Below the pieces are notes generated by a model. It worked only from the letters and a program-made list of their open reading frames with translations, searched no databases and had not been told where the DNA came from. Shown here piece after piece: positions 28,096-37,669 of a stretch of 64,000 nucleotides of DNA. The translations under genes were made by a program, and so were the position numbers. Each line of letters begins with the position of its first letter. The first letter of the stretch is position 1. Source of the stretch: Nitrosopumilaceae archaeon (GTDB lineage Archaea; Thermoproteota; Nitrososphaeria; Nitrososphaerales; Nitrosopumilaceae); the NCBI GenBank assembly GCA_965214835.1, contig CBDCCK010000002.1:1280001-1344000 (forward strand), in the 5' to 3' direction.

Positions 28096-29514
28096 GTCAA
28101 TTCATAAAAAAACGAACAATTTTGACAACTGCTTTTGATCCAAACATTAAGATCAGGCAAACCATCGCACATGCATGGGAAAACAGGCAGAATTTGTGGC
28201 ATCTAGGGACAAATTCCTGGGCAAGCAAAGCACTCACGCCTTTGCAAGGCGTACTAGACCCGACAGTATGGAACACGACAGTTGTTGCTGCTGCAGTTAA
28301 TTCGTGCATGTGGAGTTTGACATACTGCCACACAAGACCCGACAGTATGGAACACGACAGTTGTTGCTGCTGCAGTAGTCAGCCCATCAAATATCGGAAC
28401 ATCTTTACCGGTAGGATCTCTCCGCTGGTAAACAGATTCCGCACGGACTGCTCCATCTCATCAAGCGTATCAAACACCTTGGCAGACAGCCTCCGCTTTA
28501 TCTCCCTCCACTGTATCTCTACAGGATTGAGCTCCGGCGTGGACGGCGGCAGGTACTCCAGTATTATCTCGCCCTTGTACTTTTCCAGCGTCTCCCTTAC
28601 GCCGACAGACTTGTGGTATGACGCATTATCCAGGAATATCAACACCTTTCCGTACTTTTCGTGCACATTTTCCAAAAAGTCGCAAAAGCTGTCGGTGTTG
28701 GTCTTGTCATAGAACATATAGTAGAATATGTTAACTGCCAGCACGCCGAACATGTACCGGCGCTGCCGTGACAGCGTCAAGGGCGCCGTGACGCTCATGC
28801 CGCGCCTGATCCACCCGTGTTTGGGGCTGTTTGAGGTCTTTTGTATGGATGACTCGTCTTCTGCCAGTACCGTATACCCTTGCGCCTCCTTTTCCCGTAT
28901 CAGCTCCTAGGATGCCTCCTTGAACTCGTTCTGCTTTTGTTTTGAGACGGCCTTTGGGTTCTTGGGCCTCGGCTTCCTCCATGAGAACCCAAGCTCGCGT
29001 GCCAGCAGCCGCGTGCCGCTCTTGCTGTATTCTATGCCGAACTTCTTTTTGATGTGCCGTCTCATCAGGCCCGAGTCCCACAGGCTGCTCTCAAAACCGC
29101 ACTCCTCGGATCCTGACTTGAGATCCGCCGCAAGCTGTTTCAGCTGCGACTCACTCAGCTTGTGCTTGCGTCCCCTGCCTGGCCGCTCGTGCCTTGCACG
29201 TATTCCCTCGTCCTGTGCGCGGATGAGCCACTTGGATATGGTGGAATGTGCCCGGTCGAGGTTCTTTGCTATCTGTTCCACACCGAGGTCGTCCTTGCGC
29301 TGCATGTATGCAAGCAGCCTGTCGCGCTTTCTCTTGTCTGTCTCCTTTTTGTATGCCTTGTGCAGGTAGGAGCGTGACGTATTTGGCAGGAATTTGCTCC
29401 CTGATGCTACGAATTCCTTTCTCTGTCTGTCCATGCATATGCGCATTCCTTGCCTGATCTTAATGTTTGGATCAAAAATAGTTGTCAAAATTGTTCTTTT
29501 TTTTATATATTGAC
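28096..29514 (-). mobile_element. IS630-family element with long TIRs; transposase 29434-28379 has one in-frame TAG
   Basis: TA flanks at 28094-28095 and 29515-29516; GFSWRKPRP, DES, DNASYH and PELNPVE.W motifs. Confidence 0.9.
28256..28376. repeat. Two identical 42-bp direct repeats separated by 37 bp
   Basis: AGACCCGACAGTATGGAACACGACAGTTGTTGCTGCTGCAGT at 28256-28297 and 28335-28376. Confidence 0.92.
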
Positions 29515-30265
29515 TACGATACCGCATCGAGTACGGCCTGAACCGCATTCTCCTTTTGCGCCGTGGTGTCAAAGGAGTATGCAAACCACCTGCGCGAAAA
29601 GGCATCAAGTACGTTGAAGCAGTAGCACCAGCCGTCCCCGTCGCAATCCACATATGTAATGTCTGCCTGCCACAGCCGGTTGGGGGCGTCGGGCCTTGTC
29701 GGCCTGCGCGAGGCCCGCATTATGTCGTTTTTGGTCTTTTTGGGCTCGATCCAGCCCATCTGGCGGTAGATTCGCCGTACCTTTTTGCGGTTTATGCGCA
29801 CGCCAGTCTCGCGCAATATCTGGTTTGCCATCCTCCGGGTTCCGTACGTCGGCCTTTTCTTGCCTATGGCACGTATGATTGAGACCGTCCCAGAGTCGGC
29901 TTTTCTGGTCCGCCTATCGGCGTACTTCCTGGCGTAATACCAGGTGCCCTTAGACGCCGCAGTATTTCAGGGCCGTGTTGAGGCTCATCGTCTGGTGGCA
30001 GATCTGTACGGCATTCATCCTTTGCTCAGCCCCATTGTTTTTTTTAAAGCGTCACAGGCCACTGCATACTCGCCTATGATGCGTTTGAGATCCTGGTTCT
30101 CCTTTTGCAGTGCAGTCACTGCCTTGTCATTCCGGCCCAGGATGGATGCCTTGCCGCCCTCGACGAACCTGTCCATCCACCTGCCAAACGTGGTGGGCGC
30201 GATGTTGTGCTTGCGGCACAGCTCGGCAGTGCTGATGTTGGTCTTGATGGACTCCATCACTATGT

Positions 30266-31681
30266 CAGTACTTCCTAGATGTACTTTTGCAGACCCGACA
30301 CGGCACCTCCGCTACTTTCCGCGATCGTTTACAAACGAGTCGGCCGCATCGACAATGCACGCGACAAACAGCATCATGGTAAACCCCTTCCCTCCTGCAA
30401 ATCCGTCCCACTTGGATTCCACGTCTATGAACACGGCAGTCCTCCACAGGTTGTACAGTATGACAGACATATAGAACAGCAGCAGCCTGACGACCGGGGA
30501 ATTGCTGCACGTCTTGCCCATTATCCCCTTGATCACCCTGAACCCGGTCTCGATTCCCCACCGACTGCGGTACTCCTCCGGTATCTGCTCAATGACTGCC
30601 TCTGCACTTTTAGCAGACATGTTGGTGGCAAAGACCAGATACCTGTCGGCTATGGTCTCTTCTGCCTTGTCCTTCTTTGCTGCTGCCGTGCCGTCCTTTT
30701 CTACCTCGTCCTTTTCCACAATGACTAGCCTGAATGTGGCGCTCTTGCCGTCCTTGTTGGTCATTGTATATTTTGATACCGCACCGCGTTCTCCGCGGTC
30801 ATGCTCCTCTATTGCCGCCACTATCCTCCTGTTCTTGACGGCAGGCATGATGTAGCTGCCCGTGCTTGTTTCTGCAGCCCTCATGCAGTCCACGTTAAAG
30901 AACCCGCGGTCATACAGGAACGTCTTGATCCTCATCCCTGATCTGGACGCCTTGCGGATCATTTTAGGCACGAAATCGGCCAGTTTTGCCTCTTTTGGAA
31001 GCTGCAGCGAGGAAAGCACGAGGTCAGACCCGTCATCTGATCCTATTCCGTGCATGGTAATGTGCGAGAGAAACGTCGACGTGCCGTTCTTGGGCTTTGA
31101 CTTTCTGGCGATATCCTCCAGGCCCTTGCCATAGTATTCCACGTCGGTAACGTCCACTGCCACGACGTCCGTGTTGTGCAGCATGCCTGACCTGCGGGCG
31201 CACCTTACCGTATGCTGCAGCATGGAGCTGCACCACTTTTGCGCATCATCCAGGCTGACGCCCCGGATCGCCTTTAGGATCCAGTCCGGACTAGGCGTAC
31301 GGCAACTATACGCGCCGCCCTTGGAGGCAGCCCCGTCGTCATGCTGCTGCCTGCTGCATTTTGAGGCCCGCCTGCGAAGGTGCGTCACGGCAGATTCTGC
31401 AAACATCCTCCTCTCAGACATGAAATATAGAACGCGCAGTGCGTCGATGTGGTCATACACTGCGTTGCGACTCTTTGAGACGGCCAGCCCGAGCTTGGGA
31501 AACCGCCGTCGCAATGTTTTAAACTGTCTCGATGTTATGTCAAACTGGTGTGCAAACACGTCGTTTTGTGTTACTGACATGATGATGGTTGGCACACCGC
31601 CTGATCTATAGTATGATGGTCAAAAAATCTCGGCAAATTGCGTAATTATCGTGCCTGCAAAAGTACATCGAGGAACTACTG
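30266..31681 (-). mobile_element. ISH3-family element, apparently intact
   Basis: 27-bp TIR CAGTACTTCCTAGATGTACTTTTGCAG / CAGTAGTTCCTCGATGTACTTTTGCAG; 4-bp TSD ATGT. Confidence 0.92.
30312..31595 (-). CDS. ISH3-family DDE transposase
   Basis: AVDVT, YDRGFF and YRSRWGIETGFR motifs; uninterrupted 427 aa. Confidence 0.9.
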   Translation of the reverse strand: MPTIIMSVTQNDVFAHQFDITSRQFKTLRRRFPKLGLAVSKSRNAVYDHIDALRVLYFMSERRMFAESAVTHLRRRASKCSRQQHDDGAASKGGAYSCRTPSPDWILKAIRGVSLDDAQKWCSSMLQHTVRCARRSGMLHNTDVVAVDVTDVEYYGKGLEDIARKSKPKNGTSTFLSHITMHGIGSDDGSDLVLSSLQLPKEAKLADFVPKMIRKASRSGMRIKTFLYDRGFFNVDCMRAAETSTGSYIMPAVKNRRIVAAIEEHDRGERGAVSKYTMTNKDGKSATFRLVIVEKDEVEKDGTAAAKKDKAEETIADRYLVFATNMSAKSAEAVIEQIPEEYRSRWGIETGFRVIKGIMGKTCSNSPVVRLLLFYMSVILYNLWRTAVFIDVESKWDGFAGGKGFTMMLFVACIVDAADSFVNDRGK

Positions 31682-31931: not shown

Positions 31932-32159
31932 TTAAAGGAACAACCTCTTGGAGCAGATTTTGTAAATCAAAACTGTCAGTAATGCCATGCTGACTGCAAG
32001 CAGAGCCAGCGCGGCTGGATTCTGTAAAATGTATGACGGGCCAAAGGACAAGGAGTCTAGATGGATTTGATGCGCCAGAGACAGCGAGCCTGCTCCGGCC
32101 AATACCAGCCCGCAAAAACCAAGTATCAGCCGGGGATAAAAAAAAGAACGTGTCAGCAT
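31932..32159 (-). CDS. Small two-TM membrane protein
   Basis: ATG 3 bp after the upstream stop; two hydrophobic segments. Confidence 0.55.
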   Translation of the reverse strand: MLTRSFFYPRLILGFCGLVLAGAGSLSLAHQIHLDSLSFGPSYILQNPAALALLAVSMALLTVLIYKICSKRLFL

Positions 32160-32162
32160 GTG

Positions 32163-32939
32163 TTACCACACACCGTATTCGAAATCCATCTCGACACTAT
32201 ACCAGATTGTGCCCCCGTGAGGATTGTCAAACGCATGGTTGCCTCTTCTGTCTCCATGGCCGTTCAAAAACACGGTTTCGGTCACGTGTCTAACCTCGCC
32301 CTGTTGGAACTCATGAGGGATAAAGCACCAATGCATGTAAAACGGGCTTGCTTCCCACGTCACATCAACTGTGTCTGGTCTGATAGGTGCCTGAAATAAA
32401 GCATGGTTAAGCGTCGCACATCCGGAATATATATCGTGTAGTGTCAGGGTGGGCGGCGTGCCATGCTCTCTGTCATACAGATCAATTCTTGCACTGCTAG
32501 GTGTAGAGGATCCAGAACCTGCACCTGCCGCTTCACTGGGAATGTCGGTGAAAACCTGGCGTATGCCAAGACCGTTGTTTACCAGTTTGTAGGTCGAGTT
32601 ATCAATTGCAGTTATCCTGAATTTTTCAGATGATATTTTTTCGCCGTCGATCCGGGTTGTGGGCTTTACTGCATATTTATCATCGGTAATTTCACGCACT
32701 ATTGTTGTGACAGAGTATGTTTGGTTTGCAATAGGACGTTCGGCTACCGTTTTTCCCGGATCAGCGGTTAGCTCCTTCATGTATTGAATCATGACTGGAT
32801 CATAGATGGGTTCTGTTTGACTTGGTTCATGAACGGAATCGTCTTGTCTTGGTGCATGTGCGAATGCGCTATTCATCCCCACAGGAGCCAACAAGGTTAG
32901 TGCCAAGAGAGATGTTGTGTATTTTGTTTTGCTGTTCAT
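32163..32939 (-). CDS. Secreted protein of unknown function
   Basis: Signal peptide MNSKTKYTTSLLALTLLAPVGMNSAFA; Gly/Ser linker; distinct C-terminal domain with two Cys. Confidence 0.75.
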   Translation of the reverse strand: MNSKTKYTTSLLALTLLAPVGMNSAFAHAPRQDDSVHEPSQTEPIYDPVMIQYMKELTADPGKTVAERPIANQTYSVTTIVREITDDKYAVKPTTRIDGEKISSEKFRITAIDNSTYKLVNNGLGIRQVFTDIPSEAAGAGSGSSTPSSARIDLYDREHGTPPTLTLHDIYSGCATLNHALFQAPIRPDTVDVTWEASPFYMHWCFIPHEFQQGEVRHVTETVFLNGHGDRRGNHAFDNPHGGTIWYSVEMDFEYGVW

Positions 32940-32949
32940 GCTCTCACCA

Positions 32950-33321
32950 GTCACTATACGCCTTTGTTATATAGCAATTGATATCAGCTTACGGTATGCC
33001 TTTTGCGCACGAAACGAGCAAGGATCCGGGATCTGCCCACGCAGGACAAAGCAAAGAAGCCTTACTTCCCAGAACGTGTTACGAAACGGGATGGAGCTGG
33101 TACGCAAGATTGCAGCCGTGGTCTTTCTCCAGGTCACCCTGTGGAAGATGATCAGGAGACATGCAAAATAGCGCAAAACAGATCCGCCGGCGGAGACCGC
33201 TGTTTCACGGGCGATCCTTCCGACACCCCTTGACGAGTACGGGATCCTACTGCTCGTTTCGTGCGCAAAAGGCATACCGCAAACCGATATCAATTGCTAT
33301 ATAACAAAGGCGCATGGTGAC
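32950..33321. promoter_or_regulatory. Inverted-duplicated promoter arms (32950-33027 and 33242-33321)
   Basis: About 80-bp near-identical inverted repeat; each arm holds a TATATAA box about 30 bp upstream of a divergent gene. Confidence 0.8.
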
Positions 33322-33331
33322 CTGTAAGAAC

Positions 33332-34305
33332 ATGGGAGAGAAAACAAAACGCATAATATCGCTTCTTGCACTGGCACTTCTGATTCCGATCGGATTGGCA
33401 AGCGCGCAGGAGGTATCGGGCGGAGAACAGGAGCCGGCAGGCCCTGTCGGAACCGTGGATGAGAACAGTCCTGAACAGGACAATGTAATATTGAGGCAGA
33501 TAGAACCGCAAGAGTTTGTGGGCCAGCACACGACCGACGTAAGACCCATCTGCAGCTACCTGTATGTCAAGTACACGTATTCCAGCGACGGGTTGGAGCA
33601 CATGGGGATAGACCACGTCTTTCGTGAGGAAGTCCTTCCGATCCCGGACACGGTATCCAACGAGGATGTTTCGCGATTCGGCGACGATCCAGTTACAAGC
33701 CAAAACTATACGCTGAACCTGATCCATGGAGACGATATTTCCGCGTTTGACAGGATCCTAGTTGACGGCGCGGAAGTATCCACGCATATGTTCCAGCAGT
33801 GGGAGATCGTAAAGACCGAAAGGGATGACACACAGCCAACCAACATGAGCTATCGGCAGGTATCGCACACCGAGGACTGGGCATCAACATAGATGGAACT
33901 TGGACAGTGCAGGACGAACACTATATCGACTACCTAGGAGGAATTTGCAACCAGTACCACATCAGGGCATGGGAGATCAGCAACAGTTCTATGATAGGGT
34001 CTGCGCACAAGGAAGTCACGAATATCAAGTTTCCATGGGACAGCATCGACATTCAGCACATCTACAGCTCCGGGCCCAACTATACGGAATATGACATCGA
34101 TACTATTTTAGGCTTGTATCATTCCCTGAGTGGATTTGATAGTGCAGAAGATGAGGCCGCAGGTGAGTTCTCCGGCAGCTGCTGGAGCACGGCACAGGAC
34201 TCGCATCATCTTGGAAACCAGTACCCTAGGAATACGATAAAGAACGACACTGTGGAGAACACCGCCCATAACGACGGATACGCAACAGTCATAAGCTGTT
34301 CATGA
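33332..34305 (+). pseudogene. Secreted protein paralog, frameshifted near 33860-33890
   Basis: Signal peptide MGEKTKRIISLLALALLIPIGLASA; ORF 33314-33892 continues in another frame (GINIDGTWTVQDEHY...) to 34305. Confidence 0.65.
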
Positions 34306-34590
34306 CCCATTTTTTTTGAATTGCTGAGCAAGCGGGGCTTTCTGACATGCAGTCTGGTGGCTACACTACCATTCATCACGACCTTTCTCATAATCGCTCC
34401 GCTTAAACCGTGGGTAGCGCTTTTTCTCTTGCCGTATACGCTGATAGTCTCGTTCTTTGGCATTTCTGTTGCGGCGGTATCGCTTCTGAACAAATCGGAT
34501 CGTTTCACGCTGACATGCTCTTTTGGGATATCGGTTGCATGCTCAGGTTCAGTATATGCCTACGAGGTAACCTCGATTCATTATTTTTAG
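34302..34590 (+). CDS. Small three-TM membrane protein (T8 tract frameshift after ATG 34302, or TTG start at 34321)
   Basis: ATGA overlap with the upstream stop; three hydrophobic segments. Confidence 0.55.
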
Positions 34591-34619
34591 TCAGCTTTTG
34601 TCTTTTTTCATACTCAGGT

Positions 34620-34916
34620 TCAGTATATGCCTACTCGGTACTTTCGTCCGATGCACTCTATTAGGTTTGCTAGTGCACGATTCATGCCGCCTGCAGACTC
34701 GAATGCCTCGCAGGTTCTGGGCCACATACTGCCCGTGGACTCGCAGACGGCCTGGCAGTTCTTTCCGCCGTAATTGAGCTCTGCCTTCCTGGCAAACAGG
34801 CATGCCTCCTTGGAGGTGTTATCATATGCCGTCTCTTCCAGGATCCTCTTTTTGCCGTCCATAATGCACGCTACGCATCTTCTCTTTCCGATGCCTGTTC
34901 CTATGCTGTACTGCAT
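34620..34916 (-). pseudogene. IS110-family transposase N-terminal remnant
   Basis: MQYSIGTGIGKRRCVACIMD...YDNT.KEA...CESTG; homologous to 21767-22211. Confidence 0.82.
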
Positions 34917-34942
34917 CTTTTCTCGCTTTCCTCTTTTTGGTG

Positions 34943-35098
34943 GATCAGATGCTGCACATGTCCATCGGCACGCCGTGGTGCATGAACACTGCAGCTCGGA
35001 ATTACCGCATTCAGAAGTCAGCGCGCAGGGCGCATGGGAAGACAGCGGTTGATCCACACCACCACCGCTACGGGCCCGGGCGTTTTAACCCGTGTTCA
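34943..35098 (-). ncRNA. Candidate IS110 bridge RNA, second variant
   Basis: Colinear with 22250-22399; covarying hairpins. Confidence 0.6.
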
Positions 35099-35274: not shown

Positions 35275-35559
35275 ATGAGCAATCCGGGCCAATTATTAAT
35301 CACGTATTCAGATACCAGAAAACAGTCAATGCGTGATTATGACAAAGACAATTGTGCAGCCTTGAACCACCTGATCAAACTAATCATGATAAAAAACAAC
35401 ATTGCTTTGGAAAAAATATCCAAGCCAGAAGACAACATTGCCGATCTTGTGATTAGTTTCTCTTCCAAGGATCAAAAAAGCTTGGATGCCTTGCATCAGG
35501 CAACCAAAGAATTGGTAAAAAAGAAGGTTGGCGCAAAGACAATTGAGATTGCATCCTAA
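35275..35559 (+). CDS. Hypothetical protein (94 aa)
   Basis: AT-rich ORF with ATG start and an upstream TTTATAT box. Confidence 0.55.
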   Translation: MSNPGQLLITYSDTRKQSMRDYDKDNCAALNHLIKLIMIKNNIALEKISKPEDNIADLVISFSSKDQKSLDALHQATKELVKKKVGAKTIEIAS

Positions 35560-35595
35560 GCCCCCCGTCTGACTAATGCTAATTGGGGAATCAGA

Positions 35596-35823
35596 TTGGA
35601 AAGGTGGCTGTATAGAATCAAAAATTACGAGAAAAAAGACAATGAAATAATAATTGACAATCTAAAAGACAGCAAATACATAATTGAAAAAGTACGTTAT
35701 CGCGACATAGAAGAGGATCCTGGAAAAATTAACTCTGTAGAGTTTAACATCGAATTTGAAGATGACGAGCATAAAAACACTGCTTGTGAACTGATGTCTT
35801 TTTTTTTCGCCAAAAGAGATTGA
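35596..35823 (+). CDS. Hypothetical acidic protein (75 aa)
   Basis: AT-rich ORF, co-oriented with its neighbours. Confidence 0.5.
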   Translation: MERWLYRIKNYEKKDNEIIIDNLKDSKYIIEKVRYRDIEEDPGKINSVEFNIEFEDDEHKNTACELMSFFFAKRD

Positions 35824-35827
35824 ACAT

Positions 35828-36088
35828 GTGCACAAAAAACCCCTGAGACTTAGATCCAAGCTACGACGCTATGCCAAGCGACGAATCATCGAGGTTCTTG
35901 CAATATATCTTGGCACTGTCGGAGCATTGCAATCACAGGCTGTAACTCTGGTTCAGATTGAGAATAAACTGGAATTTTCACTACAGGACGGATTTTGGCT
36001 GAATTTTGTATGGGCCGGACTACCGGCTGTGGCGTATTTTGTTGTGGGCTTGCGAAATCTTGAGAAACGTTATCTTGTAGATGATTGA
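35828..36088 (+). CDS. Small two-TM membrane protein (86 aa)
   Basis: Basic N-terminus followed by two hydrophobic segments; 4 bp from the previous stop. Confidence 0.55.
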   Translation: MHKKPLRLRSKLRRYAKRRIIEVLAIYLGTVGALQSQAVTLVQIENKLEFSLQDGFWLNFVWAGLPAVAYFVVGLRNLEKRYLVDD

Positions 36089-36724: not shown

Positions 36725-37669
36725 ATGATCAGATGCCTTGCTACAGCAGGGTTTTTCCTCGTTCTGGCTGCGGCCTTTACTGCCGTAGCACATGCGGAGG
36801 TACCGCCCCCGCTAAAGCAGCTTGCAGCCGGCGTCTCTGCTGAGGACATCCAGTGCAACCATGACAGGATCCTTGTGATGCGCGACGGTGGCTCCCCTGC
36901 GTGCGTGTATGCTGAAACCGCGCAAAAAAAGGGCTGGCACATGGTAAATGTAGCAAGCACGGCACCGTCGGTTACCGACTACGGTGAAGTCCACGAGGCC
37001 GTCATAAATTCGATTCTGATGGGAGATGTAGGAGAGCCGCTAACACTCAACGTGACCATGATCAACCACACCCCGGAAGGCTCGTGGTCTCCCTCCCTTG
37101 GACAATTTGTCGACAAGAACTTTTCGCTGAGGATAAGAGCGCCGGACTCTTTTGAGGTGGACGAGCACCAGGAATACTTTAGAGGCATAACGGGAGCAAA
37201 TTCATGGCCACCTGACTATTCGGTATATTTCGGGATCGATGAGAGTGCCGACAGGCTTGACATGGAAAGCCTGACATTCACCCCCACCGAGGCCGGCATA
37301 TACTCAATGAACATACAAAACAAGACTGCGACGGAGAGAGTCGGGCATTACTACATCTGGTTTGTAATCGGCGAGTCGGACTCGTATTGGTCCTACGACG
37401 AGCCCCCAAGGCCGGCGGCCCCGCATGAACCCCAGACACGCAGAGCCAATCCCGACGTGACCATGACTGCCGTGCAGCTTACCGACCCCGAGGTAAGGGA
37501 GTTTTTGCAGAAGCTGTCTGCAAGGCACGGTACTGAGGTCACACTTGACAACGTACCGCAGTACATCTCCGAGGACGACGATGTCTACCTCATGAAGAGC
37601 GCCGAGAATGTAGACGACAGGTGGGAGGAGATACTACTGCTTTTCAGGGACGTACCATACCATGGATAG
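36725..37669 (+). CDS. Secreted protein with the thaumarchaeal PLKQ...C...SPACV...GW module
   Basis: Signal peptide followed by PPLKQLAAGVSAEDIQC...GSPACV...KKGW. Confidence 0.8.
   Translation: MIRCLATAGFFLVLAAAFTAVAHAEVPPPLKQLAAGVSAEDIQCNHDRILVMRDGGSPACVYAETAQKKGWHMVNVASTAPSVTDYGEVHEAVINSILMGDVGEPLTLNVTMINHTPEGSWSPSLGQFVDKNFSLRIRAPDSFEVDEHQEYFRGITGANSWPPDYSVYFGIDESADRLDMESLTFTPTEAGIYSMNIQNKTATERVGHYYIWFVIGESDSYWSYDEPPRPAAPHEPQTRRANPDVTMTAVQLTDPEVREFLQKLSARHGTEVTLDNVPQYISEDDDVYLMKSAENVDDRWEEILLLFRDVPYHG

What the first reader, a model, noticed from the sequence alone, without database searches (positions are those of the whole stretch)
31932..34590. Mirror-image cassettes: secreted protein plus small membrane protein (candidate polymorphic toxin-immunity system)
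Seen: two divergent two-gene units. The large genes share a signal peptide (KTK...SLLAL.LL.P.G) and mid-region motifs (NQTYSV/SQNYTL, IDGEKIS/VDGAEVS). After a linker they diverge into different Cys-containing C-terminal domains. Each is followed, within 3 bp or overlapping, by an unrelated 75-95 aa multi-TM protein. Established: a conserved N-terminus, a variable C-terminus and a tightly linked small variable gene form the architecture of polymorphic toxins and bacteriocin-immunity pairs. Inference: an undescribed archaeocin-like or receptor/ligand system in AOA. No catalytic motif was recognised.
Basis: partly seen in the sequence, partly recalled or inferred. Interest (0 to 1): 0.72.

Follow-up and report, generated by a model that had tools for sequence, protein, structure and literature searches.

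The report
Leader-sharing secreted-protein and membrane-partner gene pairs
Two back-to-back gene pairs in an ammonia-oxidising archaeon each encode an exported protein plus its own small membrane protein, but the exported proteins are unrelated families that share only a promoter and export signal, and one of them is broken, so this is not a swap-the-tip toxin system although a toxin-and-antidote role is still possible.

Summary
The two divergent units exist, but only partly as described. Gene A (263 aa) and its 75-aa two-helix membrane partner are intact. "Gene B" is two frames: it lacks about 48 codons and is frameshifted relative to intact 360-380 aa orthologues, and contigs of three public runs show the same junction. 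A and B share a 155-nt inverted repeat covering promoter and signal peptide, and nothing else. BLASTP and profile-profile comparison do not recover the mid-region motifs. Each family is conserved end to end in other Nitrosopumilaceae, so the C-termini are constant and the defining feature of polymorphic toxins is not met.

The linked small gene is real. It follows A in 5 of 5 genomes with A at 44% identity or more, follows both intact B genes in the one other genome that has them, and shows purifying selection (dN/dS 0.16-0.37).

The same leader occurs 9 times in this genome in front of at least five kinds of secreted protein. Seven are followed by an ORF with a predicted membrane helix. Four of these sites, the A-B spacer included, adjoin a histidine-kinase/response-regulator pair or its remnant.

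The best reading (about 0.4) is a co-regulated set of exported effector plus cognate membrane protection pairs, analogous to bacteriocin-immunity regulons. A docking or partner role is nearly as likely. No function is shown.

The parts
32163..32954 (-). Gene A. An exported two-domain beta-rich protein, 263 aa as an ORF. The likely true start is the ATG at 32939 (258 aa) and the likely signal-peptide cleavage is after AFA.
   Evidence: ORF. The leader alignment puts the conserved ATG at 32939. The family is conserved end to end in 7 of 151 family genomes and 8 database proteins. No Pfam, NCBIfam or PDB relative was found. The AF2 model has pLDDT 66, with the N-domain (45-135) near 90 and the C-domain (175-258) near 75. 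Fold matches are generic only: an Ig/MATH-like sandwich at Z 6-8 and a small barrel or half-barrel at Z 5-7.
31932..32159 (-). A_small. A 75-aa membrane protein with two predicted helices, cognate to A. Its codons 5-8 are a T8 tract.
   Evidence: Homologues sit directly downstream of A in L032, G001, G014 and L066 (alignment A4). dN/dS is 0.18 against a paralogue and 0.16 against the G109 copy. It was not found in the 5.8-billion protein database, not even as itself.
32866..33020 (-). Leader of A. It comprises an upstream box, a TATA element about 34 nt before the ATG, and the signal-peptide codons. It is one arm of the inverted repeat.
32970..33171 (+). Remnant of a histidine-kinase 5' end (32970-33141) joined to the last ~12 codons of a response-regulator gene (33135-33171). 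About 1.6 kb has been deleted relative to the close relative L032.
   Evidence: blastn of L032 against the window gives 96.5% over 172 nt and 87.6% over 177 nt, read together with the L032 ORF map.
33251..33405 (+). Leader of B. It has the same box, TATA element and signal-peptide codons, and is the other arm of the inverted repeat.
   Evidence: The same box also stands upstream of both intact B genes of G052.
33314..33892 (+). B, 5' fragment. It holds the signal peptide plus N-terminal domain, with the likely start at the ATG at 33332, and ends at a premature TAG.
   Evidence: It is 57-58% identical to residues 5-191 of the intact G052 genes.
33868..34305 (+). B, 3' fragment in another frame. 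It is the distal part of a putative LssY_C-like enzyme domain. The gene is a pseudogene.
   Evidence: The deletion removes P199, N201 and W227 (P0009 numbering), which are invariant or near-invariant in the superfamily alignment. Contigs of 1026 nt span 33286-34311 with 2 other letters and 0 gaps in runs X1, X3 and X4, from 2 studies.
34321..34590 (+). B_small. An 89-aa membrane protein with a TTG start and at least two predicted helices, cognate to B. A T8 tract lies in the 15-nt spacer before it.
   Evidence: Homologues follow B in G052 (both copies), the own-genome paralogue B2, and L053. dN/dS is 0.36-0.37.
34535..34640 (+). Direct repeat of 35 nt (89%, spacing 71 nt) over the 3' end of B_small. 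The second copy encodes a tail more like that of the paralogue, so the window's last ~8 codons look rearranged.
   Evidence: Family D2. Tails compared by eye in the ORF translations; this is an inference.
34620..35057 (-). IS110-type transposase fragment flanking the B unit.
   Evidence: Pfam DEDD_Tnp_IS110, E 3.3e-4, below the curated cut-off. The paralogue B2 abuts a full 390-aa ORF that I read by eye as an IS110-type transposase (not scanned).
30312..31595 (-). DDE transposase (insertion sequence) flanking the A unit.
   Evidence: Pfam DDE_Tnp_1, E 2e-11.

Best explanation
SHOWN. The region holds two members of a larger set of gene pairs. Each pair encodes a Sec-exported protein followed by its own family-specific small membrane protein.
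- A and B are unrelated families, each conserved end to end.
- They share a roughly 150-nt module: an upstream box, a TATA element about 34 nt before the ATG, and a signal peptide.
- This module recurs 9 times in this genome, in front of at least five kinds of exported protein. One of them looks like a zinc protease.
- Four of these sites adjoin a histidine kinase plus stand-alone receiver pair or its remnant: the two at the 2.03 Mb cluster, the 1.72 Mb site, and the A-B spacer.
- In the window that kinase/receiver pair has been deleted down to remnants, and B is a pseudogene. A and A_small are intact.

INFERRED MECHANISM. The pairs form a co-regulated accessory regulon. The exported protein would act outside the cell on competitors or on the envelope. 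The downstream membrane protein would be its producer-side cognate partner, most likely a self-protection (immunity-type) protein. The conserved T-tract at the junction would act as a leaky archaeal terminator, so that less partner than effector is made. Pairs would be gained, exchanged and lost by recombination at the shared leader and by insertion-sequence activity.

The logic is that of bacterial bacteriocin-immunity regulons controlled by a two-component system, not that of polymorphic toxins.
For: PAIRS TRAVEL TOGETHER.
- A_small follows A in 5 of 5 genomes with A at 44% identity or more: the window, L032, G001, G014 and L066.
- B_small follows B in both G052 copies, in the own-genome paralogue B2 and in L053. 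Outside G000, reliable B_small matches in the 151 genomes searched are only the two beside B in G052.
- Paralogous copies in the genome keep the same pairing.

SMALL ORFS ARE CODING.
- dN/dS is 0.16-0.18 for A_small and 0.36-0.37 for B_small.

SHARED LEADER.
- There are 9 copies.
- Seven of the nine are followed by an ORF with at least one predicted membrane helix.

LINK TO THE TWO-COMPONENT SYSTEM.
- Kinase plus receiver sit beside leaders at two own-genome clusters.
- They also do so in L032, with remnants between A and B in the window.
- Full-length kinase orthologues lie beside B in G052 and beside the box in G109 and G063.

CASSETTE CONTENT DIFFERS BETWEEN CLOSE RELATIVES.
- Downstream of the receiver gene, L032 has a family-C gene where the window has B.

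ACCESSORY, FAST-TURNOVER CHARACTER.
- A occurs in 7 of 151 and B in 2-3 of 151 family genomes.
- The flanks are insertion sequences.
- Several copies are decayed: A2, A3, B, B2, D2, L053 and P0014.
- An A_small without A exists in G109.

POSSIBLE ENZYME IN B.
- The superfamily has invariant His/Arg/His plus Pro/Trp.
- Four of 22 distant relatives scanned score below threshold for PF14067 LssY_C.

T-TRACT.
- A T-run stands at every large/small junction printed: T5-T8 in 9 of the 10, a weaker T4 in G014. GC-rich G052 has T7 and T5.

ANALOGUE.
[quoted passage not shown]" (abstract starts of 10.1101/2022.05.27.493805 and PMC3171984, seen in the listing).
Against: - No toxin, pore-forming or catalytic domain was recognised in A. 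Pfam, NCBIfam, PDB sequence search, Foldseek and VIA-align gave nothing specific.
- A's predicted folds, a small barrel plus an Ig/MATH-like sandwich, suit binding at least as well as killing.
- The best-conserved motif of B_small appears to lie in a cytoplasmic loop (read by eye). That is not what a shield against an outside enzyme would need.
- "Broken large gene with intact small gene" is expected by target size alone, about 4:1. With 3-4 cases it is not significant.
- A2_small has lost its ATG and A3_small has an altered end, so small genes decay too.
- A's homologues in G001, G014, L066 and G047 lack the box, so the leader is not intrinsic to family A.
- Two of the 9 leader genes (C1, C2) have no clear membrane ORF downstream.
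- The receiver has no DNA-binding domain, so the regulatory link is by position only.
- No expression data exist.
Confidence: 0.4

Rival explanations
1. Docking or partner model. The small membrane protein is not protective. It holds, receives or works with its exported protein at the cell surface as an anchor, a receptor for a ligand-binding protein, or the membrane half of a split enzyme. The set would be a regulon of surface or host-interaction factors of symbiont-type archaea.
For: - A and B have cleavable signal peptides and no anchor of their own.
- A's domains look like binding modules: nitrobindin/lipocalin-like at Z about 5-5.6 and Ig/FN3/MATH-like at Z 6-8.
- B's domain is distantly LssY_C-like. 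From my recollection, not tested here, that domain is often fused to membrane domains in bacteria.
- The family-specific pairing is conserved across genera.
- The genomes that carry these genes are titled Cenarchaeum sp., Nitrosopumilus sp. or Nitrosopumilaceae MAGs, several of them large, up to 4.3 Mb.
Against: - The outer loop of A_small is only about 18 residues.
- A conserved T-tract terminator signal between the two genes would give less anchor than cargo.
- A generic anchor would be expected to be shared, not different for each family.
- An A_small stands alone without A in G109.
Confidence: 0.3
2. This is a polymorphic toxin system in which a constant N-terminal region carries interchangeable C-terminal toxin domains, each with its own immunity gene.
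For: - There is a shared N-terminal signal peptide and a co-varying downstream small gene.
- C-terminal fragments with a small gene (A3, B2, L053) superficially resemble orphan toxin-tip/immunity modules.
Against: - Only 26-30 signal-peptide residues are shared.
- Both families are constant over their whole length in all homologues.
- No known toxin or trafficking domain was found.
- The C-terminal fragments abut transposase ORFs and lie at scattered sites, not in arrays behind a full gene. The IS110, IS66 and insertion-sequence labels are my by-eye readings of those ORFs.
Confidence: 0.03
3. The small ORFs are not functional partners. The T-tracts end transcription after the large gene, and the downstream ORFs are silent, decaying, or independent membrane proteins that are linked only by descent.
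For: - T-runs at every junction, T5-T8 in 9 of 10 and T4 in G014.
- A_small is not called as a gene in the protein database.
- A2_small lacks a start codon.
- The window-versus-L032 comparison of A_small has 5 non-synonymous changes to 1 synonymous.
Against: - dN/dS is well below 1 over longer distances.
- ORF, length and two-helix topology are kept from 93% down to 26% identity across genera.
- In A_small the T-tract is itself coding (Ser-Phe-Phe-Tyr) and is kept in L066.
Confidence: 0.07
4. Signalling accessories. The exported protein and small membrane protein modulate the neighbouring histidine kinase, as ligand-binding proteins and small membrane regulators do for some bacterial kinases.
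For: - Physical linkage to a kinase with a weak PilJ-like sensor region.
- Binding-type folds in A.
Against: - Nine pairs of at least five unrelated kinds stand against two intact kinases.
- One pair encodes a protease-like protein.
- The window pair persists after loss of its kinase.
Confidence: 0.08

Closest known systems
Bacteriocin-immunity regulons controlled by a two-component system, for example the Streptococcus pneumoniae blp locus. Abstract starts of 10.1101/2022.05.27.493805 and PMC3171984 were seen in the listing. Details of leaders and promoters are recalled, not read.
   Same: - Several operons, each encoding an exported product plus a small membrane protein.
- A shared leader and shared promoter elements.
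- An adjacent histidine kinase and response regulator.
- Strain-to-strain variation in cassette content.
- Frequent broken producer genes.
   Different: - The products here are 25-40 kDa folded proteins with Sec signal peptides, not 50-80 aa peptides with double-glycine leaders.
- No dedicated ABC exporter or pheromone gene was seen.
- The promoter is archaeal (TATA type).
- The receiver lacks a DNA-binding domain.
- Neither killing nor immunity has been shown.
Polymorphic toxin systems (Zhang et al. 2012, PMC3482391; abstract read).
   Same: An exported protein is followed immediately by a small cognate gene. Distribution is patchy and truncated copies keep the small gene.
   Different: There is no constant N-terminal trafficking or repeat domain and no diversity of C-terminal domains on one scaffold. 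No known toxin domain is present. The small protein is an integral membrane protein.
PF14067 LssY_C domain family, function unknown. This concerns B only.
   Same: Distant relatives of B's central region score E 2e-4 to 3e-3 (17.7-21.2 bits) over profile positions 7-45, the region of B's Asp-Pro-Ile-Asn-Leu motif.
   Different: All scores are below the 25-bit cut-off. B itself, its intact orthologue and the own genome give no match. B has an extra N-terminal beta domain and four invariant cysteines.
Paralogous surface-protein families with a conserved promoter plus signal-peptide 5' end and divergent mature parts, such as Mycoplasma variable lipoproteins and the Borrelia upstream homology box genes. 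Recalled from memory; no paper was read.
   Same: DNA-level conservation stops at the end of the signal peptide. The family has many members and copies decay.
   Different: There is no lipobox, no repeats, no inversion or phase-variation machinery shown, and there is a cognate downstream membrane gene.
Archaeal protein antibiotics (halocins, sulfolobicins). Recalled from memory; no paper was read.
   Same: They are exported archaeal proteins proposed to act on competitors.
   Different: No sequence or fold relation was found, and none is reported from ammonia oxidisers in the searches I ran.

Membership tests
Polymorphic toxin system | A constant N-terminal (trafficking or repeat) region shared by proteins that differ in their C-terminal toxin domain. 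| tested here: not met
   A and B share only 26-30 signal-peptide residues (BLASTP; hhalign). All A homologues and all B homologues are collinear to their C-termini.
Polymorphic toxin system | A C-terminal domain that belongs to a recognised toxin family. | tested here: inconclusive
   No Pfam, NCBIfam or PDB sequence match was found. Fold matches for A are generic. The B model was too poor to search, at pLDDT 43.
Polymorphic toxin system | An immunity gene immediately downstream that co-varies with the toxin. | tested here: inconclusive
   A co-varying small gene is present. Protection was not tested.
Bacteriocin-immunity regulon under a two-component system | Several producer-plus-small-membrane-protein operons with a common leader or promoter, next to a histidine kinase and response regulator. 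| tested here: met
   Nine leader copies. Seven of the nine have a downstream ORF with a predicted membrane helix. A kinase plus receiver is adjacent in G000 (twice), L032, G052, G109 and G063.
Bacteriocin-immunity regulon under a two-component system | The exported product kills or inhibits related cells, and the small protein protects the producer. | not testable with these tools
   This needs a growth-inhibition and rescue experiment.
Bacteriocin-immunity regulon under a two-component system | A dedicated exporter and a signalling peptide. | not tested
   None was noticed in the loci read, but no targeted search was made. Sec signal peptides make an exporter unnecessary.
PF14067 LssY_C (B only) | A score at or above the curated cut-off of 25 bits. 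| tested here: not met
   The intact orthologue, the window fragments and the whole genome give no match. Four of 22 distant relatives scanned reach 17.7-21.2 bits.

The most novel reading that the evidence does not exclude
Symbiont-type ammonia-oxidising archaea carry a competition regulon controlled by a two-component system. It would consist of several Sec-exported protein toxins of unrelated, undescribed families. These include a His-rich LssY_C-like enzyme, a metzincin-like protease and the two-domain protein A. Each would be neutralised by its own small membrane immunity protein. All would be driven by one conserved promoter plus signal-peptide leader, which also serves as the recombination handle for exchanging whole toxin-immunity cassettes between strains. 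This would be an archaeal, protein-sized counterpart of the pneumococcal blp system and the first antagonism system described in ammonia oxidisers.
Probability: 0.3. Interest if true: 0.8.

Novelty: new variant of a known kind. Interest (0 to 1): 0.5.

Why it matters
Ammonia-oxidising archaea are abundant, and little is known about how they compete or interact with hosts. I found no paper on toxin or immunity systems in them: one search returned 4 papers, none on this.

The result gives several things to work with:
- two orphan exported-protein families, each with a dedicated membrane partner;
- a conserved promoter box found in 6 of 151 Nitrosopumilaceae genomes;
- a kinase/receiver pair tied to it by position.

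Together these make a concrete, testable candidate regulon for either antagonism or surface interaction.

The similarity that suggested a polymorphic toxin is a shared regulatory and export module, and one of the two large genes is dead.

Tried and rejected
- COMPLEX PREDICTION. The job with A (residues 41-258, alignment A1) and A_small (alignment A4) returned "no answer", score 0.00. It is not evidence either way. Two earlier hand-ins met a full queue.
- B STRUCTURE. The AF2 model of the intact orthologue P0009 had pLDDT 43, too poor for a fold search.
- A STRUCTURE SEARCHES. Foldseek against PDB gave no match at E <= 0.001. VIA-align wide and the second look gave only generic beta folds, best Z 8.2 to a designed Ig dimer.
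- ESM ATLAS. Nothing usable for B (best 0.90, an unnamed cluster) or for A (best 0.82).
- PDB SEQUENCE PROFILES. Best E was 0.14 for B and 0.55 for A.
- PF14067. Searched in the own genome with no match at E <= 10.
- A_SMALL IN THE PROTEIN DATABASE. No hit, not even itself.
- METAGENOME SCANS. The scans for B and A relatives found none.
- ALIGNMENT QUERIES.
- RNA EVIDENCE. No RNA holder is listed among 14 runs, so expression is untested. In the lay-down, parts of the stretch lacked long spanning contigs.
- SIGMA-70 AND HAIRPIN SCAN. At or below shuffle expectation, and not suited to archaea.
- LITERATURE. "LssY" returned unrelated papers. A search on Nitrosopumilus promoters found nothing relevant. 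"WING-49" returned 0 papers.
- EARLIER FINDINGS OF THIS SCAN. Nothing on this locus or sequence.
- REJECTED IDEA: B READ BY PROGRAMMED FRAMESHIFT. The break coincides with a deletion of about 48 codons that includes invariant residues.
- REJECTED IDEA: HOLIN-TYPE RELEASE PROTEINS. The large proteins have Sec signal peptides and the small gene lies downstream. This is an inference.
- REJECTED ARGUMENT: BROKEN LARGE GENES BESIDE INTACT SMALL GENES AS PROOF OF IMMUNITY. It is not significant given the 4:1 size ratio.
Full report
WHAT IS AT THE COORDINATES

On the minus strand, gene A (32163-32954, 263 aa) is followed 3 nt after its stop by A_small (31932-32159, 75 aa). On the plus strand there is no single large gene. 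An ORF of 192 aa (33314-33892) ends at a TAG. A second frame, open from 33868, carries the rest up to 34305. B_small (34321-34590, 89 aa, TTG start) follows 15 nt later. Hydropathy gives two membrane segments in A_small and at least two in B_small.

The units are flanked by insertion-sequence genes: DDE_Tnp_1 at 30312-31595 and a weak IS110-type match at 34620-35057. The window is G000:C2:1280001-1344000 of a 3.22 Mb, 52.6% GC genome.

WHAT A AND B SHARE

The two units are joined by a 155-nt inverted repeat, 75% complementary, with arms at 32866-33020 and 33251-33405. blastn gives 132 nt at 82.6%, E 7e-30. The repeat covers about 90 nt of upstream DNA plus the signal-peptide codons.

At protein level only the first 30 residues align (E 0.010). 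A profile-profile comparison of the two family alignments aligns 26 signal-peptide columns and nothing else, at probability 55%. The "mid-region motifs" are therefore not supported.

B IS BROKEN

In genome G052, titled "MAG: uncultured Cenarchaeum sp.", B is one ORF of about 380 aa. It is present twice in tandem, each copy followed by a B_small homologue. Five database proteins of 325-378 aa are collinear with it.

Against these, the window copy lacks about 48 residues, P0009 roughly 189-236, and changes frame at the junction. The missing stretch holds P199, N201 and W227, which are invariant or near-invariant in a 25-sequence superfamily alignment.

The junction is not an assembly slip. Contigs of 1026 nt span 33286-34311 with 2 differing letters and no gaps in runs X1, X3 and X4, from two studies. 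One of these may be the source sample.

The second B copy in the genome (C2:311210-311707) is cut at its 5' end beside a 390-aa ORF that I read as an IS110-type transposase, and it keeps its small gene.

BOTH FAMILIES ARE CONSTANT, NOT POLYMORPHIC

A has homologues in 7 of 151 genomes of its family, G000 included. It has 8 proteins among 5.8 billion. They align over the whole length, with two invariant cysteines. B aligns over its whole length with four invariant cysteines.

Neither family matches Pfam, NCBIfam or PDB sequences. [quoted passage not shown] That trait is absent.

THE SMALL GENES ARE REAL, COGNATE PARTNERS

A_small homologues lie directly behind A in L032, G001, G014 and L066. 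With the window, that is 5 of 5 genomes having A at 44% identity or more. The six sequences align with conserved Arg, Gly and Asp positions and the same two-helix layout.

More distant A relatives differ:
- Those at 23-25% identity (L013, L014) are followed by a 200-aa membrane protein.
- One at 29% identity (L011) has no such gene.

B_small follows B in G052 (both copies), in B2 and in L053. In a search of 151 genomes, reliable matches outside G000 lie only beside B in G052. The five weaker matches are marginal, and four of them carry internal stops.

dN/dS values:

| Comparison | dN/dS |
|---|---|
| A_small, window vs paralogue | 0.18 |
| A_small, window vs G109 | 0.16 |
| B_small, window vs B2 and vs G052 | 0.36-0.37 |
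| A_small, window vs L032 (1 synonymous, 5 non-synonymous) | too few changes to interpret |

An A_small stands alone next to a 285-aa ORF that I read as lysX in G109. A fragment sits next to an ORF that I read as hisI in the own genome.

Every large/small junction printed carries a T-run: T5-T8 in 9 of the 10, T4 in G014. GC-rich G052 has T7 and T5. In A_small the run is coding. Oligo-T tracts are archaeal termination signals (established knowledge), so I infer a leaky stop that lowers expression of the partner.

THE WIDER SET

The leader occurs 9 times in the genome. An alignment shows an invariant core running from the box through the TATA element to an ATG 34 nt downstream.

| Copy | Product behind the leader |
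|---|---|
| A | Intact, in the window |
| B | Pseudogene, in the window |
| A2 | Second A, split by an insertion that carries a 546-aa ORF I read as an IS66-type transposase |
| C1, C2 | Two 291-292 aa proteins |
| D1, D2 | Two ~292 aa proteins; D2 is frameshifted in an A-run of its signal peptide |
| E | 255-aa protein whose C-terminus resembles C by eye |
| F | 241-aa protein with a metzincin-type zinc motif; Reprolysin_5 at 21.7 bits, below the cut-off |

Seven of the nine are followed by an ORF with 1-3 predicted membrane segments. C1 has none at the threshold used, and C2 has none.

A histidine kinase (HisKA plus HATPase_c, with a weak PilJ-like sensor region) and a receiver-only response regulator sit beside leaders in two clusters.

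In the close relative L032 the order is C, receiver, kinase, a 339-aa ORF I read as an IS630-type transposase, then A and A_small. Window 32970-33141 is 96.5% identical to the kinase 5' end, and 33135-33307 is 87.6% identical to the receiver 3' end plus the next leader. The spacer between A and B is therefore what is left after about 1.6 kb of kinase and receiver was deleted. Behind the receiver the two relatives carry different cassettes, C in one and B in the other.

Full-length kinase orthologues (42-49% identity) lie beside B in G052 and beside the box in G109 and G063. The box core is found in 6 of 151 genomes in 4 genera, in front of unrelated signal-peptide proteins. It stands upstream of both G052 B genes. 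It is missing upstream of A in G001, G014, L066 and G047, so the leader is a module that is not tied to one protein family.

WHAT THE PROTEINS LOOK LIKE

The AF2 model of A has mean pLDDT 66. It shows a well-predicted N-domain (a helix plus a seven-strand meander, residues 45-135) and a beta-sandwich C-domain. Foldseek finds nothing at E <= 0.001.

VIA-align gives only middling, generic matches:
- C-domain: a designed Ig dimer (Z 8.2, rmsd 2.7 A, 96 residues aligned) and MATH/TRAF domains (Z 6-7, rmsd 4-5 A).
- N-domain: barrel segments and nitrobindin-like proteins (Z 5-7).

No catalytic site is evident.

B could not be modelled (pLDDT 43). A profile search of 1.84 billion representatives found 34 relatives. 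Distant ones match only the central region. Four of 22 scanned reach sub-threshold scores for PF14067 LssY_C. The superfamily keeps His264, Arg266 and His280 invariant and His318 nearly so. That suggests an enzyme; this is an inference.

HOW IT MOST LIKELY WORKS

Shown:
- Cognate exported-protein plus membrane-protein pairs.
- A shared promoter and signal-peptide module.
- Linkage by position to a two-component system.
- An accessory distribution with fast decay.

Inferred: the pairs form one regulon, and the membrane protein is the producer-side partner of its exported protein. I commit, at about 0.4, to a self-protection role. The reasons are that each unrelated exported family has its own partner, that content varies between close relatives, and that the layout mirrors bacteriocin-immunity regulons under two-component control (abstract starts seen).

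A docking or partner role (about 0.3) is favoured by A's binding-type folds and by the conserved, probably cytoplasmic, loop of B_small. The remaining readings are silent ORFs, kinase accessories and a true polymorphic toxin. They are less likely, for the reasons given with each.

LIMITS

- There are no expression data: no RNA run is listed.
- No binding evidence was obtained.
- B contexts are few. Beyond the window there are four: two in G052, B2 and L053.
- Genomes searched were a sample of 150 from the family.
- The decay pattern has no statistical weight.
- The comparisons to Mycoplasma and Borrelia families, to halocins and to LssY_C domain architectures are recalled, not tested.
- Insertion-sequence family names other than the two Pfam-scanned window ORFs, and the lysX and hisI labels, are my readings of ORF translations, not tool results.

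Noticed in passing
window 33268-33310 and 32962-33003; also G000 C2 at 2462444, 2036159, 2033188, 2030490, 2001856, 1725231, 1722535; loci L038-L051: A conserved promoter box sits about 34 nt before the ATG of signal-peptide genes. It runs from a core reading AAAAGGCATACCGCAA, through ATATCAATTG, to a TATA element. It was found in 6 of 151 family genomes in 4 genera, often divergent from a histidine kinase or from a ~270-296 aa protein with no Pfam match. That protein could be its regulator.
   Followed up: partly
window 36725-37669 (+): A 314-aa secreted protein carries an NCBIfam WING-49 domain (E 2.9e-13) at residues 29-68. Its first ~70-80 residues match about 15 other places in the genome at 27-62% identity while the rest does not. 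No paper mentions WING-49.
   Followed up: no
G000 C2:1725298-1726166 (locus L036): Leader gene D2 has a frameshift in a run of A's inside its signal peptide: A7 against A8 in its intact paralogue D1. This could be decay or slipped-strand on/off switching.
   Followed up: no
loci L016 and L020 (G052): The two tandem B genes are 97% identical, with differences clustered by eye in one loop (about residues 310-325). Their small genes are only 83% identical. dN/dS is about 0.9 for both. This hints at local diversification of a pair, but on few changes.
   Followed up: partly
window 31932-32159 (-): A_small is absent from the 5.8-billion protein collection, even as itself. Gene callers apparently miss it.
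   Followed up: partly
window 35275-36088 (+) and L032:5585-6397: A 94-aa gene and a 163-aa gene lie on the other side of the A unit in the close relative. In the window the 163-aa gene is split into ORFs of 75 and 86 aa. The neighbourhood has been rearranged around the insertion sequences.
   Followed up: no
P0007 and P0014 (database proteins): P0007 and P0014 look like decayed genes called as proteins. P0007 fuses an insertion-sequence HTH region (PF13276) to scrambled A fragments. P0014 is a B with an internal deletion run into B_small.
   Followed up: no
window 28907-29831 (-): IS630-like helix-turn-helix ORF (HTH_33, E 1.7e-13) with overlapping fragments. The window around the finding is rich in insertion-sequence remains.
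   Followed up: no
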